IMG/VR virus record: IMGVR_UViG_2778261458_000007
DNA from: a virus
Taxonomy: Duplodnaviria; Heunggongvirae; Uroviricota; Caudoviricetes
DNA: 39,379 nt
Reading direction: 5' to 3' (one strand)
Shown: positions 5,025 to 33,803 of the stretch, in pieces
Layout of the letters: each line of letters opens with the position of its first letter
Position numbering within the stretch: the stretch's first letter is position 1
Made by a program: the position numbers and the translations under genes
Notes under the pieces: generated by a model
Seen by the model: only the letters and a program-made list of their open reading frames with translations
The model's database searches: none
Told to the model about the DNA's origin: nothing

Positions 5025-5041
5025 GTTACCGTTGAGGTAAT
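5025..5041. promoter_or_regulatory. Operator site 1 (OL-proximal): GTTACCGTTGAGGTAAT
   Basis: 17-bp palindrome NTTACC-N5-GGTAAN overlapping -10 and +1 of leftward early promoter. Confidence 0.6.
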
Positions 5042-5159: not shown

Positions 5160-5744
5160 TTATTGTTTGTTTTTTTCGTTCTGGTTGATGACAAATTCAA
5201 TGTAACTTTCGATCTTTGCTTTCTCGGTTTCGGGTAACAATGCGTAGCGCGAGCGATCATAGTTGATGGTCGCAGGGTCGTGCGGGTGAATCAGTAATTC
5301 ATAGCCGTGACGCCCGAATGCGGATGCAACATTCTCCAGGGTGGAAATGGAAACGCTGACCTCATTGTTTAACAGGCGGCTGATTGTCACCTGGGCTACG
5401 CCGGATGCGCGGTGAAGTTTTCCCTGTGTTGAAAGGTCGCGGCTTTCGCTCATCCAGCGTTCCAGGTTGTGAGCCGCCAGCTGGCCAATGTCGCTTGGGC
5501 CGACAGGCTGAAAACCTTCCTGAGAAAGCGAGCGATCGATATCAAGCCAGTTACGGGGTTTATTGGCGGCAGCTTCAATTTTTCGTGCAACCTGGTCGCC
5601 GATAACCTTCTTGCCAAGAGCCCAGCGGTTTACCAGATTTGCCTGAGTTCCAAGTTTTTCAGCCATCCGCGTCTGAACACCATTGAATTCACGGTCGATC
5701 AAGTCGTTGAGATTTTGCCTGCGGACGTCCTGGATACTTTTCAT
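5160..5744 (-). CDS. CI-like prophage repressor (tandem HTH, no recognisable S24 peptidase domain)
   Basis: 194-aa ORF divergent from cro-like gene across an operator cluster; two HTH-like segments (QTRMAEKLGTQANLVNRW and GVAQVTISRLLNNE); no Ala-Gly/Ser-Lys cleavage motifs seen. Confidence 0.7.
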   Translation of the reverse strand: MKSIQDVRRQNLNDLIDREFNGVQTRMAEKLGTQANLVNRWALGKKVIGDQVARKIEAAANKPRNWLDIDRSLSQEGFQPVGPSDIGQLAAHNLERWMSESRDLSTQGKLHRASGVAQVTISRLLNNEVSVSISTLENVASAFGRHGYELLIHPHDPATINYDRSRYALLPETEKAKIESYIEFVINQNEKNKQ

Positions 5745-13577: not shown

Positions 13578-13654
13578 TGGCGTGGCATGCAGGATTCGAA
13601 CCTGCGACCAACCGCTTAGAAGGCGGTTGCTCTGTCCAACTGAGCTAATGCCAC
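13578..13654 (-). tRNA. tRNA-Arg (anticodon UCU)
   Basis: 77-nt cloverleaf on minus strand: acceptor GTGGCAT/ATGCCAC, D-arm GCTC...GAGC, anticodon stem ACCGC/GCGGT with loop CTTCTAA, T-arm GCAGG-TTCGAAT-CCTGC, encoded CCA; own terminator downstream. Confidence 0.85.
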
Positions 13655-32235: not shown

Positions 32236-32252
32236 TTTACCTTTAAGGTAAT
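32236..32252. promoter_or_regulatory. Operator site 11 (accessory operon promoter): TTTACCTTTAAGGTAAT
   Basis: Overlaps -10 and +1 of leftward promoter TTGCAG-17-TACTAT. Confidence 0.55.
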
Positions 32253-32323: not shown

Positions 32324-33034
32324 TCAGAAGAACCCTGCCTTGTCGTTGATGTACTCCGCGTGTGTCTGGATATCACGCAGGCATTTGCTCACACCGACGA
32401 TGTAGCAGAACATGGTGGTCAGCTCCGCCGCTGCGCCCGATACGTCGTGCCCGTCGTCCTGTAACTGGTTCAGCAGATTCATCAGCAGTGAGTTCTCTGT
32501 CAGGCCGAGAACACCAGACGGCGAATGAATCAGGCTGCGGTAGCCGGGCTTCAGTGGGGCGCTGTAGGTTTTGTTCTCTACCTTCATTGCCTGCATCACT
32601 GCTGACGCCGTGGCGTTGGCTACCTGGTCGGCAACCATCTTTATGCGTTCTTCCTGCGGGAGCGAGTTTTTAATGTAGCGTCCGGTGCGGCGGATCTGAG
32701 GAAGAACCTCACCTGTAACCCATTTACGAAAGCGGTAGGGTATAGTGCCTGGTGTCACTGCGTCGCGGCAGCGTAGGATCAGTGTGTAGAGGCCTGACTC
32801 GGAGATGATGTTGATCTCTTTTACTCGGCTGTCAAAAATTGCACGATGTTCATGCCCTATGTTGAACATAGACCTTTCATCATCATCCAGTTTTTCAAGT
32901 GCTTGGGTGACGTTTTGGATACGCAGCGCACTACAAACGTCTTGGGCTACAAACCATGGTTGGCCATCGATAATGATGGAACGGATAGGGTTAACAGATT
33001 CAAATTTGAAGATGGCAGTTTGAGCATTAGCCAT
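32324..33034 (-). CDS. Bro-N domain antirepressor-like protein
   Basis: N-terminal region FVAQDVCSALRIQN...ISESGLYTLILRCRD...FRKWVTGEVLPQIRRTG matches Bro-N-type antirepressors; start ATG 33034 with GGAG upstream. Confidence 0.65.
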   Translation of the reverse strand: MANAQTAIFKFESVNPIRSIIIDGQPWFVAQDVCSALRIQNVTQALEKLDDDERSMFNIGHEHRAIFDSRVKEINIISESGLYTLILRCRDAVTPGTIPYRFRKWVTGEVLPQIRRTGRYIKNSLPQEERIKMVADQVANATASAVMQAMKVENKTYSAPLKPGYRSLIHSPSGVLGLTENSLLMNLLNQLQDDGHDVSGAAAELTTMFCYIVGVSKCLRDIQTHAEYINDKAGFF

Positions 33035-33190
33035 GGTGGTTATCTCCACTTAGTGATTTTAATCACCACCGCAACGCCAATTACTGGTGGTGAACTGGAC
33101 AAGGTTGGCGTACCGGCCTAAGTGGTACCGGCGTCCTTTCGGACCCCTGCCCAGCCCACCATAATTCGGATATAGCTGTGCTTAACGCAT

Positions 33191-33213
33191 AAAAAAACCA
33201 CGTCTGGCGTGGT
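33191..33213 (-). terminator. Intrinsic terminator inside leader upstream of Bro-N gene
   Basis: Hairpin ACCACG-CCAGA-CGTGGT followed on minus strand by T-run. Confidence 0.55.
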
Positions 33214-33302
33214 ATGCGCCACTTAGTAACCCGGGACGCCAATCCCGGCACTGGATTTTGCCAGTGCCTGATTACTATGGCACAAGAGGAGTGCGATGTA
33301 AA

Positions 33303-33319
33303 TTTACCTCAAAGGTAAA
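33303..33319. promoter_or_regulatory. Operator site 12 (antirepressor leader promoter): TTTACCTCAAAGGTAAA
   Basis: Overlaps -10 of leftward promoter TTGCAA-17-TATATT. Confidence 0.55.
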
Positions 33320-33346
33320 TATAAGCACTCCACTTGGTAATTGCAA
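33318..33346 (-). promoter_or_regulatory. Promoter of structured leader/sRNA upstream of Bro-N gene
   Basis: On minus strand -35 TTGCAA (33346-33341), 17-bp spacer, -10 TATATT (33323-33318) overlapping operator site 12. Confidence 0.45.
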
Positions 33347-33349
33347 ACC

Positions 33350-33607
33350 TTATCTGGTTTGTTTTCGTAATTGTTCGGCACAATAGTCGAGATGTGTTTG
33401 CAGCTCCTGCATAGACATCTGTGAGCTGGTGACGTAGTTAATCAGTGCAGTCAGTTCGGCAAGTGGGCCATCGACATTAAATCCATCCTTATCGAGATCC
33501 CGGAGTAATTTCATCAAGTGCGATCCCTCCACCAGTGATCTGACGCCTCCCGGCGTGTGAATCCTTTCGGTAAATCCGTCTTCCAGTGGATAGTGATACT
33601 GCTGCAT
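33350..33607 (-). CDS. Small antirepressor-like protein (homolog of Bro-N protein C-terminal domain), LexA-box associated
   Basis: About 45 percent identity by eye to residues about 150-215 of the Bro-N protein (shared LAELT, QTH..Y); start at second ATG 33607 with GGAG RBS; LexA box 23 bp upstream. Confidence 0.5.
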   Translation of the reverse strand: MQQYHYPLEDGFTERIHTPGGVRSLVEGSHLMKLLRDLDKDGFNVDGPLAELTALINYVTSSQMSMQELQTHLDYCAEQLRKQTR

Positions 33608-33629
33608 CTTAATCTTCTCCATGCAATAA

Positions 33630-33645
33630 CTGTATATTTATACAG
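33630..33645. promoter_or_regulatory. LexA (SOS) box CTGTATATTTATACAG
   Basis: CTGT-N8-ACAG with AT-rich centre; extended match AACTGTATATTTATACAGTA to consensus TACTGTATATATATACAGTA; 23 bp upstream of small antirepressor-like gene. Confidence 0.75.
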
Positions 33646-33683
33646 TAGCAAATAATTTGTTTGCTATCCAGCACGTTTTGCAA

Positions 33684-33700
33684 ATTACCTGAAAGGTAAT
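33684..33700. promoter_or_regulatory. Operator site 13: ATTACCTGAAAGGTAAT (perfect palindrome)
   Basis: In divergent region between LexA-boxed small gene and tailspike gene; preceded by TTGCAA. Confidence 0.6.
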
Positions 33701-33803
33701 ATCTATTCATATTCACAGTCTTTCTATCCATATGTGGTTTTTCAGGTAATAGAATAACCAGATATGCGGCGCAACGGGTGCTGCGACTATCTGGAGATTT
33801 AAC

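What the first reader, a model, noticed from the sequence alone, without database searches (positions are those of the whole stretch)
33035..33349. Operator-controlled promoter driving a highly structured leader (candidate sRNA or attenuator) upstream of the Bro-N antirepressor gene
The 315-bp gap between the two antirepressor-like genes has no credible ORF. It holds a leftward promoter (TTGCAA-17-TATATT at 33346-33318) whose -10 overlaps operator site 12. Downstream on the minus strand are three stable hairpins (33247-33268, 33231-33248, 33197-33213); the last is followed by a T-run, that is an intrinsic terminator about 120 nt from the predicted start. A 14-bp palindrome GTGATTTTAATCAC (33052-33065) lies 18 bp upstream of the Bro-N start. 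This resembles small-RNA or attenuation control of antirepressors in P1/P7 (c4 RNA) and P22 (sar RNA).
Basis: partly seen in the sequence, partly recalled or inferred. Interest (0 to 1): 0.6.

Follow-up and report, generated by a model that had tools for sequence, protein, structure and literature searches.

The report
C4 antisense RNA switch guarding antirepressor
The gap upstream of the phage's antirepressor gene holds an unannotated copy of a known RNA control module (an IsrK-type small RNA followed by a P1-type C4 antisense RNA) that most likely blocks translation of the antirepressor, so it is real and functional but of an already known kind.

Summary
The 315-bp gap (33035-33349) is non-coding, strongly structured on the minus strand (z = -4.5) and conserved in 253 phage records. 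It is not a new element. Rfam places two curated families there: isrK (33267-33191, 67.7 bits) and C4 antisense RNA (33166-33083, 66 bits).

The layout matches the annotated P1 immI control region part for part:
- a repressor operator with two tandem promoters;
- a1/b1 target copies, inside IsrK;
- C4 with a'/b';
- a2/b2, with b2 on the Shine-Dalgarno sequence of the Bro-N antirepressor.

Across 11 different b' loop alleles (14 related phages plus P1), b1 and b2 change to match (0 of 200,000 permutations reach the observed pairing).

Most likely mechanism: C4 is made from the antirepressor leader and blocks antirepressor translation, while the IsrK-type RNA carries decoy sites.

Corrections:
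- The homology-supported promoter is 33302-33274 (start about 33267, a 77-nt RNA).
- The palindrome is not conserved.
- A P22 sar-type antisense transcript is not supported.

Verdict: a new, unannotated member of a known kind. Interest is modest.

The parts
33628..33647 (-). LexA (SOS) box upstream of the small 90-aa antirepressor-like ORF. It is a possible upstream source of transcription into the module.
   Evidence: AACTGTATATTTATACAGTA has 2 mismatches to the 20-mer consensus. It is the only such site in the window, with 0 expected. CTGT-N8-ACAG sits at the same place in L001-L006.
33350..33622 (-). 90-aa ORF, a paralogue of the C-terminal domain of the Bro-N antirepressor. It lies directly upstream on the same strand.
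   Evidence: 40% identity over 78 aa to Ant residues 151-228, E = 9e-16. It matches phrog_450. No minus-strand terminator is predicted between it and isrK.
33318..33346 (-). In position it corresponds to P1's P2c4 (former P51a).
   Evidence: It matches 9 of 12 consensus positions. A -35/-10 pair at the same place is kept in the phiV10-like, Tyrion and Klebsiella ST11-OXA245phi3.2 (L008) loci even though the spacer sequences differ; Klebsiella ST512-KPC3phi13.3 (L015) has no clear -35 there.
33302..33320 (.). Operator for the prophage repressor: core TTACC-N5-GGTAA at 33304-33318, extended palindrome ATTTACC-N5-GGTAAAT. It overlaps the -10 of the upstream promoter and touches the -35 of the downstream one.
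   Evidence: There are 13 sites in the window against 0.59 expected. The half-sites are conserved while the central 5 nt vary in 9 homologous loci. The candidate repressor at 5160-5744(-) has an HTH_3 domain and is flanked by four such sites.
33274..33302 (-). Downstream promoter: -35 TTTACA at 33302-33297, a 17-nt spacer, and an extended -10 TGC-CATAGT at 33279-33274. The predicted start is about 33267-33268.
   Evidence: It was found. It aligns position for position with P1's annotated sigma-70 promoter P1c4/P51b (TTGACC-17-TATAGT) and with promoters in all 14 homologues. The Rfam c4-a1b1 model includes this -10 region.
33191..33267 (-). IsrK-type small RNA. Parts: hairpin 1 at 33267-33248; hairpin 2 at 33247-33232 with a1 (UUGGCGU, 33242-33236) in its loop; b1 (CUAAGUGG, 33226-33219) in the linker; intrinsic terminator at 33213-33197 plus U7 at 33197-33191.
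   Evidence: Rfam RF01394 scores 67.7 bits (gathering 50), full length. RF03163 c4-a1b1 scores 42.6 bits, just under its 46.7 cut-off. In hairpin 1, 7 of 8 pairs show compensatory changes. The terminator was found.
33083..33166 (-). C4-type antisense RNA. By homology to P1 c4 the mature form is about 33160-33086 (75 nt). It has a 17-bp closing stem and two hairpins; b' (CCACUUAG, 33125-33118) lies in the loop of hairpin 2 and a' (ACGCCAA, 33111-33105) in the single-stranded junction.
   Evidence: Rfam RF01695 scores 66 bits (gathering 45), full length. The closing stem is 100% paired in 13 sequences, with 4 compensatory pairs.
33074..33080 (-). a2 target site (UUGGCGU), complementary to a'.
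   Evidence: Coordinates are. a2 switches to UUGGUCU exactly in the phages whose a' is AGACCAA. P1 has UUGACAG paired with CUGUCAA.
33063..33070 (-). Conserved GGUGGUGA box. It can pair either with the 3' strand of C4 (UCACCACC, 33093-33086), giving a hairpin with a2 in its loop, or with ACCACC just before the ant AUG, which sequesters the start region.
   Evidence: It is invariant in 13 sequences. The alternative pairings appear in the single-sequence fold and in the alignment fold. Its function is inferred.
33053..33066 (.).
   Evidence: It is present but absent from most homologues. It is probably incidental.
33044..33053 (-). b2 target site (CUAAGUGG, 33053-33046), overlapping the Shine-Dalgarno GGAG (33047-33044) of the Bro-N antirepressor gene.
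   Evidence: It forms an 8-bp perfect duplex with b' at -12.6 kcal/mol. The b'/b2 match is cognate-specific across 11 alleles. The distance from b2 to the start codon is 11 nt here and 10 nt in P1.
32324..33034 (-). Bro-N antirepressor gene (236 aa from the ATG at 33034), the regulated target.
   Evidence: Pfam Bro-N, E = 1e-19. PHROG 130 'anti-repressor Ant', E = 1.6e-55. A homologous ORF4 of phage ZX5 promoted the lytic cycle when overexpressed (PMC9782041).

Best explanation
The gap encodes, on the minus strand, a P1-immI-type antisense RNA module that keeps the Bro-N antirepressor untranslated.

Transcription starts at one or both of two tandem promoters that flank a prophage-repressor operator. 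It may also be fed by read-through from the LexA-controlled small gene upstream. The first product is an IsrK-type RNA that ends at an intrinsic terminator. Read-through transcripts continue into a C4-type RNA and then the antirepressor leader.

By homology with P1, C4 is cut out as a 75-nt RNA. Its exposed a' and b' segments pair with a2 and b2 in the leader. b2 overlaps the Shine-Dalgarno sequence, so ribosome binding is blocked.

The IsrK-type RNA carries exact copies of the two target sites (a1, b1). It can therefore bind C4 and act as a decoy, in cis or in trans, so the ratio of IsrK to C4 sets whether the antirepressor is made.

What is shown:
- membership of the two RNA families;
- the conserved structure;
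- the three-way complementarity and its covariation;
- the positions of the promoters, operator and Shine-Dalgarno sequence.

What is inferred:
- processing of C4;
- translational repression;
- the decoy role of IsrK;
- repressor control of the promoters.
For: RNA family matches
- Rfam isrK scores 67.7 bits and C4 scores 66 bits. Both are full length and above their gathering scores.
- All 14 related loci fetched carry the C4 family above its cut-off on the antirepressor strand directly upstream of an antirepressor gene. Thirteen of them also carry isrK above its cut-off. The fourteenth (SW-37) has only a divergent first hairpin.

Comparison with P1
- The annotated P1 record has the same order: operator Oc4, promoters P2c4 and P1c4, a1, b1, c4, a2, b2, then a start codon.
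- The spacings are close: a2-b2 gap 22 nt in P1 and 20 nt here; b2-to-ATG 10 nt and 11 nt.
- P1's own upstream segment hits c4-a1b1 at 51 bits and isrK at 35 bits.

Complementarity in the window
- a' ACGCCAA pairs with UUGGCGU at a1 and a2.
- b' CCACUUAG pairs with CUAAGUGG at b1 and b2, at -12.6 kcal/mol each.
- Only 3 of 20,000 loop shuffles reach both energies.

Covariation between the RNAs
- There are 11 distinct b' alleles. The cognate b1 is the best partner in 11 of 11 and the cognate b2 in 10 of 11.
- 0 of 200,000 permutations reach the observed energy sums.
- Mean energy is -11 kcal/mol for cognate pairs, against -5.1 (b2) and -3.7 (b1) for non-cognate pairs.
- The a allele switches in concert at all three sites.

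Covariation within the RNAs
- 15 pairs have changes on both sides, against 8.3 +/- 1.6 in shuffles.
- 87% of cells are paired, against about 40% when the partner columns are slid.

Experimental support from relatives
- In Gifsy-1, short IsrK binds the read-through transcript and switches on antirepressor translation. A processed RNA, STnc1160, lies downstream of IsrK (PMC4825925).
- Both RNAs are highly expressed in lysogens (PMC7067206).
- In P1, c4 RNA represses Ant synthesis (PMC8546580; the annotation notes).
Against: No expression, processing or binding data exist for this phage, so every functional step is by homology.

The window lacks two coupling devices used by the studied relatives. 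There is no icd-like gene (P1), and the orf45-like frame stops after 14 codons. The route from RNA pairing to Ant output may therefore differ.

Predicted folds also sequester the start region in a local hairpin independently of C4. C4 binding may therefore not be the only block, or even the main one.

The effect of the repressor on the downstream promoter is unknown. The operator centre lies about 44 bp upstream of the predicted start, a position that can repress or activate.

The c4-a1b1 model scores 42.6 bits, just below its 46.7-bit cut-off.
Confidence: 0.78

Rival explanations
1. P4-type transcriptional immunity. C4 pairs with a1/b1 on the nascent leader and enforces termination at the IsrK terminator, and possibly Rho-dependent termination further on. 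Control would then be mainly attenuation of transcription into ant rather than a block of translation. This could operate alongside the main explanation.
For: b1 lies directly 5' of the terminator hairpin, and a1 is in the loop just before it. The terminator is conserved in every homologue. Hershko-Shalev et al. call IsrK a structural homologue of P4 SeqA and raise termination control by the downstream RNA (PMC4825925). The Rfam clan CL00128 groups C4 with c4-a1b1.
Against: b2 sits on the Shine-Dalgarno sequence in the window, in P1 and in most homologues, which points to translational control. In Gifsy-1, co-expression experiments did not support the termination idea.
Confidence: 0.3
2. Gifsy-1-type activation through an upstream small ORF. 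IsrK in trans would open the ribosome site of an orf45-like frame that starts at the AUG at the 5' end of C4, and ribosomes translating it would turn on ant by translational coupling.
For: The AUG is at leader nucleotide 107, exactly as in Gifsy-1 orf45. phiV10, ZX5 and TL-2011b have a 35-codon frame ending about 25 nt before ant. ZX5 annotates a small 'ash family protein' there.
Against: In the window the frame stops after 14 codons, inside the b' loop. In homologues it runs 3, 8, 15, 28, 33 or 35 codons, or is fused to ant, so it is not conserved as coding. Neither the 37-aa ZX5 peptide nor the 56-aa GTG-started ORF that spans this part of the window (33251-33081, a different frame) hit any Pfam or NCBIfam model.
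Confidence: 0.07
3. There is no regulatory RNA. The hairpins are simply the terminator region of the upstream 90-aa gene, and the rest is an ordinary spacer with chance palindromes. Alternatively, the region encodes a small 'Ash-like' protein.
For: The terminator does follow the upstream ORF. The public annotations list only a terminator (phiV10), nothing, or small or extended ORFs such as 'ash family protein'.
Against: Two covariance-model hits have E-values of about 1e-12. The fold z-score is -4.48. Compensatory changes occur in the stems. The three-way covariation of the a/b sites gave 0 of 200,000 permutations. Conservation ends exactly at the ant ATG although the ant proteins differ. The ORFs are not conserved.
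Confidence: 0.03

Closest known systems
Bacteriophage P1/P7 immI control region (Oc4/Op51, P51a/P51b, a1-b1, c4 RNA, a2-b2, icd-ant)
   Same: The order and strand of all parts are the same. A repressor operator sits beside two tandem promoters. A two-hairpin a1/b1 carrier is followed by a terminator-like hairpin. The C4 fold is the same: a long closing stem, two hairpins, b' in the second loop and a' in the junction. The sites are 7-nt a and 8-nt b, b2 lies on the Shine-Dalgarno sequence, and the spacings are similar.
   Different: The target here is a Bro-N antirepressor hit directly; there is no icd gene and no Ant1/Ant2 pair. The operator belongs to an unrelated HTH repressor (TTACC-N5-GGTAA) and lies between the two promoters rather than on the -35 of the upstream one. 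The host phage is an integrating phiV10/epsilon15-like podovirus (Uetakevirus), not a plasmid prophage. The a/b sequences are different alleles.
Gifsy-1 isrK locus of Salmonella (IsrK, STnc1160, orf45, anrP; Hershko-Shalev et al. 2016, PMC4825925)
   Same: It has the same Rfam isrK family RNA with a leaky terminator, followed by a C4-like processed RNA and an antirepressor gene. IsrK shares complementarity with the downstream RNA.
   Different: The orf45 frame needed for translational coupling in Gifsy-1 is cut to 14 codons here. The Gifsy-1 promoter has no TTACC-N5-GGTAA operator (locus L012). The downstream consequences through AntQ are specific to Gifsy-1.
Satellite phage P4 immunity (CI RNA with seqA, seqB, seqC)
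   Same: A processed small RNA made from a leader pairs with complementary copies placed both upstream and downstream of itself. IsrK was described as a structural homologue of SeqA.
   Different: P4 CI causes premature transcription termination and controls replication genes (my own knowledge). Here the downstream site covers a ribosome binding site of an antirepressor. Homology to P4 itself was not tested.
P22 sar RNA (immI of P22)
   Same: It is a small RNA that limits antirepressor synthesis.
   Different: sar is a true cis-antisense transcript from the opposite strand (my own knowledge). No opposite-strand promoter is predicted in this gap, and no sar-like family was hit.

Membership tests
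Rfam RF01394 isrK | Covariance-model score at or above the gathering score (50 bits), full-length match | tested here: met
   67.7 bits over model positions 1-77, at 33267-33191 on the minus strand.
Rfam RF01394 isrK | Two 5' hairpins, a linker and a Rho-independent terminator, supported by covariation | tested here: met
   The hairpins and the terminator are predicted. Hairpin 1 has compensatory changes in 7 of 8 pairs. Hairpin 2 is nearly invariant, so it says nothing either way.
Rfam RF01394 isrK | Made as a discrete Hfq-binding small RNA, with partial read-through of its terminator | not testable with these tools
   This needs Northern blots, RNA-seq or Hfq co-immunoprecipitation. It has been shown only for Gifsy-1 (PMC4825925).
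Rfam RF01695 C4 antisense RNA | Covariance-model score at or above the gathering score (45 bits), full-length match | tested here: met
   66 bits over model positions 1-87, at 33166-33083 on the minus strand. P1's own c4 scores 68.8 bits.
Rfam RF01695 C4 antisense RNA | Long closing stem enclosing two hairpins, supported by covariation | tested here: met
   The 17-bp stem is 100% paired in 13 sequences, with 4 compensatory pairs. Hairpin 1 has 3-4 compensatory pairs.
P1/P7 c4 system (immI) | a' and b' in C4 are complementary to a2 and b2 in the co-transcribed target leader, with b2 at the ribosome binding site | tested here: met
   There are 7-nt and 8-nt perfect matches, and b2 overlaps GGAG. 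The match is cognate-specific across 11 alleles.
P1/P7 c4 system (immI) | Second copies of the targets (a1, b1) lie upstream of c4 | tested here: met
   a1 is at 33242-33236 and b1 at 33226-33219. The c4-a1b1 model scores 42.6 bits, against a cut-off of 46.7.
P1/P7 c4 system (immI) | Prophage-repressor operator next to tandem promoters upstream of a1/b1 | tested here: met
   The operator at 33302-33320 lies between promoter-like sites at 33346-33318 and 33302-33274. The downstream site aligns with P1's P1c4/P51b. Binding and activity were not tested.
P1/P7 c4 system (immI) | An icd-like ORF lies between b2 and ant, and its translation is needed for ant expression | tested here: not met
   The Bro-N ant ATG follows b2 by 11 nt, and there is no intervening ORF.
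P1/P7 c4 system (immI) | C4 is released from the precursor by RNase P as an RNA of about 77 nt | not testable with these tools
   The ends (33160-33086) are predicted only by alignment with the annotated P1 c4. The role of RNase P is from my own knowledge.
Gifsy-1 isrK-orf45-anrP mechanism | A conserved small ORF overlaps the C4-like RNA and is translationally coupled to the antirepressor | tested here: not met
   The frame from the AUG at 33162 stops after 14 codons. Its length among homologues runs from 3 codons to fusion with ant.
P22 sar-type cis-antisense control | A promoter on the opposite strand gives a transcript complementary to the ant start region | tested here: not met
   No plus-strand promoter-like site is found in 32900-33800. 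This was a consensus scan only.

The most novel reading that the evidence does not exclude
In phiV10/epsilon15-like phages the IsrK-C4 module may be wired into a two-stage induction latch that has not been described.

Proposed sequence:
1. A LexA box controls a mini-antirepressor, which is a paralogue of the C-terminal domain of Ant.
2. Transcription of that gene runs on, with no terminator, into IsrK-C4-ant.
3. DNA damage therefore floods the cell with the IsrK decoy.
4. The decoy titrates C4 and releases the large Bro-N antirepressor.
5. Loss of repressor from the operator between the two promoters reinforces the effect.

In addition, the freely recombining a and b 'address codes' are shared across genera. 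Enterobacter phage Tyrion, E. coli phage EC.W1-9 and Klebsiella phage ST512-KPC3phi13.3 have the same a' and the same 9-nt b' core. These codes would define RNA-level immunity groups that allow cross-repression or cross-induction between unrelated co-resident prophages.
Probability: 0.25. Interest if true: 0.5.

Novelty: new member of a known kind. Interest (0 to 1): 0.3.

Why it matters
It explains how this widespread group of E. coli prophages probably keeps a potent antirepressor silent. The 1.5-kb region containing the gap and both flanking genes has a match in 535 of 5,426 complete E. coli genomes (218 with at least 80% of it), and the gap itself has a match in 253 phage records.

It also shows that the P1-type c4 circuit is a portable cassette. 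The cassette ends exactly at the start codon of whichever antirepressor it guards.

It has a practical side as well. Public annotations of these phages list nothing here, or only a terminator, a sequence-similarity note, or small or extended ORFs called 'Ash family protein' or 'hypothetical protein' that overlap the RNAs. These regions should be re-annotated as non-coding RNA genes.

The variable loop 'codes' predict which prophages can cross-control each other. That is relevant to prophage induction in polylysogens, including Shiga-toxin phages that carry the same module.

Tried and rejected
- The palindrome as a protein-binding site. It is absent from most homologues, so it was dropped.
- A conserved small protein in the gap. 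The ORFs are not conserved, and the ORFs tested hit no Pfam or NCBIfam model.
- A sar-like antisense promoter. None is predicted.
- Using the window-derived dot-bracket for the terminator and for C4 hairpin 1 on the MAFFT alignment. Indels shift the register, so paired fractions were poor (55-60%). I relied on hairpin 1 of isrK, the C4 closing stem and the RNAalifold table instead.
- A first regular expression for a' failed on the ACGCCAA allele and was corrected.
- Literature. The original P1 c4 papers (PMC312442, PMC196329) and the PMC id I recalled for the epsilon15 genome paper (PMC2698709) are not held. P1 processing details therefore rest on the GenBank annotation and my own knowledge. 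No published description of the TTACC-N5-GGTAA operator was found. The ZX5 paper does not mention small RNAs or LexA.
- The large protein-homology, structure-prediction and metagenome tools were not used, because the question was settled at the RNA level.
Full report
**What is in the sequence**

The 315-bp gap at 33035-33349 lies between two minus-strand genes.
- Downstream is a 236-aa Bro-N antirepressor (ATG at 33034; Pfam Bro-N E = 1e-19; PHROG 'anti-repressor Ant' E = 1.6e-55).
- Upstream is a 90-aa ORF at 33622-33350. It is 40% identical to the C-terminal third of that antirepressor.

- The promoter-like site TTGCAA-17-TATATT at 33346-33318.
- An operator-like inverted repeat, TTACC-N5-GGTAA, at 33304-33318. 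It is one of 13 in the window, against 0.59 expected from shuffles.
- Two hairpins at 33267-33248 and 33247-33232.
- A terminator hairpin at 33213-33197 followed by seven U.

The minus-strand RNA from 33268 to 33020 folds far better than shuffled versions: -106.1 against -81.7 +/- 5.5 kcal/mol, z = -4.48.

**What it is**

A search of the whole window against Rfam found two curated RNA families side by side in the gap, both on the minus strand and both full length (repeated).
- isrK (RF01394) at 33267-33191: 67.7 bits, cut-off 50.
- C4 antisense RNA (RF01695) at 33166-33083: 66 bits, cut-off 45.

The C4 element was not noticed. A third model, c4-a1b1 ('a1, b1 targets of C4 antisense RNA', RF03163), matches 33280-33228 at 42.6 bits, just below its 46.7-bit cut-off.

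The window is a phiV10/epsilon15-like phage of the genus Uetakevirus.
- The gap is 99.4% identical to Escherichia phage HEMP4 and 82% identical to phiV10.
- 253 phage records have a match to the gap.
- 535 of 5,426 complete E. coli genomes have a match to the surrounding 1.5 kb.

None of the annotated records I opened lists an RNA gene here. phiV10 has only 'putative rho-independent terminator' and a similarity note. RefSeq E. coli records have nothing. ZX5 calls a 37-codon 'ash family protein' on top of C4.

**Comparison with phage P1**

The fully annotated P1 record gives, in order:
1. C1 operator Oc4 (former Op51);
2. promoters P2c4 (former P51a) and P1c4 (former P51b);
3. a1 and b1;
4. the 77-nt c4 RNA;
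5. a2 and b2, annotated 'repression of icd ant translation';
6. the icd start codon.

On the P1 sequence Rfam finds C4 at 68.8 bits, c4-a1b1 at 51 bits and isrK at 35 bits over the a1/b1 segment. The isrK family is therefore the a1/b1 carrier with its terminator.

The window has every one of these parts in the same order.

| Part | Sequence | Window coordinates | Location |
|---|---|---|---|
| a1 | UUGGCGU | 33242-33236 | loop of IsrK hairpin 2 |
| b1 | CUAAGUGG | 33226-33219 | IsrK linker |
| b' | CCACUUAG | 33125-33118 | loop of C4 hairpin 2 |
| a' | ACGCCAA | 33111-33105 | C4 single-stranded junction |
| a2 | UUGGCGU | 33080-33074 | ant leader |
| b2 | CUAAGUGG | 33053-33046 | ant leader, overlapping the Shine-Dalgarno GGAG (33047-33044) |

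The geometry is close to that of P1.

| Spacing | Window | P1 |
|---|---|---|
| a1-b1 gap | 9 nt | 7 nt |
| a2-b2 gap | 20 nt | 22 nt |
| b2 to start codon | 11 nt | 10 nt |

By alignment with P1 c4, the mature RNA would be 33160-33086, or 75 nt.

**Comparative test of the RNA-RNA contacts**

I fetched 14 related loci from phages of E. coli, Enterobacter, Klebsiella, Hafnia, Yersinia and Salmonella, including Shiga-toxin phages.
- All 14 have C4 above its Rfam cut-off, directly upstream of an antirepressor gene.
- 13 of them also have isrK above its cut-off. The fourteenth (SW-37) has a divergent first hairpin.
- The leader from the IsrK 5' end to the ant ATG is 235-247 nt in all of them.
- Sequence conservation stops exactly at the ATG, although the antirepressor proteins differ.

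The b' loop differs in almost every phage: there are ten alleles, eleven with P1. In each phage b1 and b2 have changed to match.
- The mean duplex energy is -11.3 kcal/mol (b1) and -11.0 kcal/mol (b2) for cognate pairs.
- It is -3.7 (b1) and -5.1 (b2) for non-cognate pairs.
- The cognate partner is the best partner in 11 of 11 cases for b1 and 10 of 11 for b2.
- None of 200,000 permutations of the phage labels reaches the observed sums.

The a sites switch together between ACGCCAA/UUGGCGU and AGACCAA/UUGGUCU. P1 has a third allele, CUGUCAA/UUGACAG.

Within the RNAs the stems also co-vary. Seven of 8 pairs in IsrK hairpin 1 have compensatory changes. The 17-bp C4 closing stem is 100% paired, with 4 compensatory pairs. 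Every measure exceeds the shuffle and slide controls.

**Promoters and operator**

When all loci and P1 are anchored on the first base of IsrK hairpin 1, every one has a -35/-10 pair at the same distance. In P1 this pair is the annotated P1c4/P51b (TTGACC-17-TATAGT). In the window it is TTTACA-17-(TGC)CATAGT at 33302-33274, which one search also found.
- The predicted start is therefore near 33267, the first base of the Rfam isrK model.
- The terminated product is about 77 nt, not about 120 nt.

It is kept in the phiV10-like, Tyrion and one of the two Klebsiella loci (L008) even though their spacers differ; the other Klebsiella locus (L015) has no clear -35. In position it corresponds to P1's operator-controlled P2c4/P51a.

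The operator has the extended palindrome ATTTACC-N5-GGTAAAT at 33320-33302 and lies between the two promoters. It overlaps the -10 of the upstream promoter and touches the -35 of the downstream one. Its half-sites are conserved in nine loci while the central five bases vary, which is the expected signature of a protein site.

Placement of an operator hard against a -10 recurs elsewhere in the window, for example at 5026 and 8193. The likely repressor is the HTH_3 protein at 5160-5744(-), which is flanked by four operators and has no self-cleavage (peptidase) domain.

Repression of the upstream promoter is the natural reading. The effect on the downstream promoter cannot be decided from sequence, because the operator centre lies about 44 bp upstream of its predicted start.

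**How it most likely works**

Shown:
- family membership;
- the conserved fold;
- the co-varying three-way complementarity;
- b2 on the ribosome binding site.

Inferred from P1 (annotation; PMC8546580; PMC8201110; my own knowledge of the Schuster laboratory's work):
- C4 is cut out of the leader of the mRNA it controls.
- It pairs through a'/b' with a2/b2.
- That pairing prevents ribosome binding, which keeps the antirepressor off.

Inferred from Gifsy-1 (PMC4825925):
- The IsrK terminator is leaky.
- The short IsrK RNA binds the downstream C4-like part and relieves repression, so it acts as an anti-antisense decoy.
- IsrK and the downstream RNA STnc1160 are abundant in lysogens (PMC7067206).

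The window differs from both models.
- There is no icd gene.
- The orf45-type frame stops after 14 codons, because this b' allele contains UAG in that frame. Among homologues the frame is 3 to 35 codons or is fused to ant.
- Control here is therefore probably direct, acting on the ant ribosome site.

A conserved GGUGGUGA box (33070-33063) can pair in two ways.
- With the 3' strand of C4, which puts a2 in a hairpin loop.
- With the ACCACC just before the AUG.

This suggests an additional structural switch that I could not resolve.

**Rivals**

- A P4-like mode could coexist with the main explanation. In it, C4 binding to a1/b1 on the nascent RNA promotes termination at 33191. I give it 0.3.
- The Gifsy-1 orf45 coupling mechanism is unlikely here (0.07).
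- 'Just a terminator and chance hairpins', or a small protein, is effectively excluded by the comparative data (0.03).
- The P22 sar analogy fails. No opposite-strand promoter is predicted, and the regulator is on the same strand as its target.

**Context worth noting**

A near-consensus LexA box lies at 33628-47. It is the only one in the window and precedes the 90-aa paralogue of the Ant C-terminal domain. It is conserved at that place in phiV10, ZX5, phiv142-3, Tyrion, TL-2011b and an E. coli prophage. No minus-strand terminator is predicted between that gene and IsrK.

SOS-induced transcription could therefore run into the RNA module. That possibility is the basis of the more novel, untested reading given in the novel-case field.

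**Verdict**

The element is a previously unannotated member of known families: Rfam isrK plus C4, on the P1 immI paradigm. It is a sound annotation and a good comparative illustration of co-evolving RNA 'address codes', but it is not a new kind of system. Interest 0.3.

Noticed in passing
window 33628-33647 (and L001 3071-3086, L003 1790-1805, L004 1774-1789, L005 1777-1792, L006 2606-2621): A near-consensus LexA/SOS box (AACTGTATATTTATACAGTA) lies just upstream of the 90-aa ORF. It is the only such site in the window and is conserved in related phages. Together with a repressor that lacks a peptidase domain, it suggests SOS induction through an antirepressor, as in the Gifsy phages and phage 186.
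   Followed up: partly
window 33350-33622 (-) versus 32324-33034 (-): The small ORF is a stand-alone paralogue (40% identity) of the C-terminal domain of the Bro-N antirepressor. It matches phrog_450, which has no assigned function. The phage therefore has two antirepressor-like genes in tandem, each with a different control element.
   Followed up: partly
window 5026, 5088, 5800, 5848, 6185, 8131, 8193, 10811, 10829, 13978, 32237, 33304, 33685: Thirteen copies of TTACC-N5-GGTAA are present, against 0.59 expected. Four of them flank an HTH_3 protein gene at 5160-5744(-) and a divergent 76-aa ORF, which is the likely immunity region. The sites are scattered over the genome, much as the C1 operators are in P1. 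I found no published description of this operator.
   Followed up: partly
L009 948-1631 (Hafnia phage yong2); L004 1185-1298 (phage ZX5): Pfam Phage_ASH (PF10554) matches residues 68-161 of an annotated 'Ash family protein'. The DNA for those residues spans the isrK and C4 RNA genes. ZX5 likewise annotates a 37-codon 'ash family protein' on top of C4. These protein calls, and perhaps part of the Pfam family, may be translations of conserved RNA genes.
   Followed up: partly
window 33162-33155, 33093-33086, 33070-63, 33042-33035: Four mutually complementary boxes (AUGGUGGG, UCACCACC, GGUGGUGA and ACCACC just before the AUG) are conserved in all homologues. They allow two alternative pairings of the leader. 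In both, the ant start region is base-paired. The function is unexplained.
   Followed up: partly
window versus L003; L005, L007 and L015: The a and b specificity sites assort independently. The window and phiv142-3 share the b code but differ in the a code. Phages of three host genera (Enterobacter phage Tyrion, E. coli phage EC.W1-9, Klebsiella phage ST512-KPC3phi13.3) share the same a' and the same 9-nt b' core, which suggests cassette exchange and possible cross-control.
   Followed up: no
window 13578-13654 (-): A tRNA-Arg gene (anticodon UCU) is carried in the window (Rfam 73.3 bits; also found by ARAGORN).
   Followed up: no
window 32237-32251: Another operator copy lies just downstream of the antirepressor gene and upstream of the next minus-strand ORF (32210-32001, phrog_5739, function unknown). 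That gene may be a separately repressor-controlled unit.
   Followed up: no
L006 1217-2305 and L007 1630-2545: In TL-2011b and EC.W1-9, extra DNA of about 0.8-1.1 kb sits between the small LexA-associated ORF and the IsrK module. It replaces the upstream promoter region but keeps the operator and the downstream promoter.
   Followed up: no
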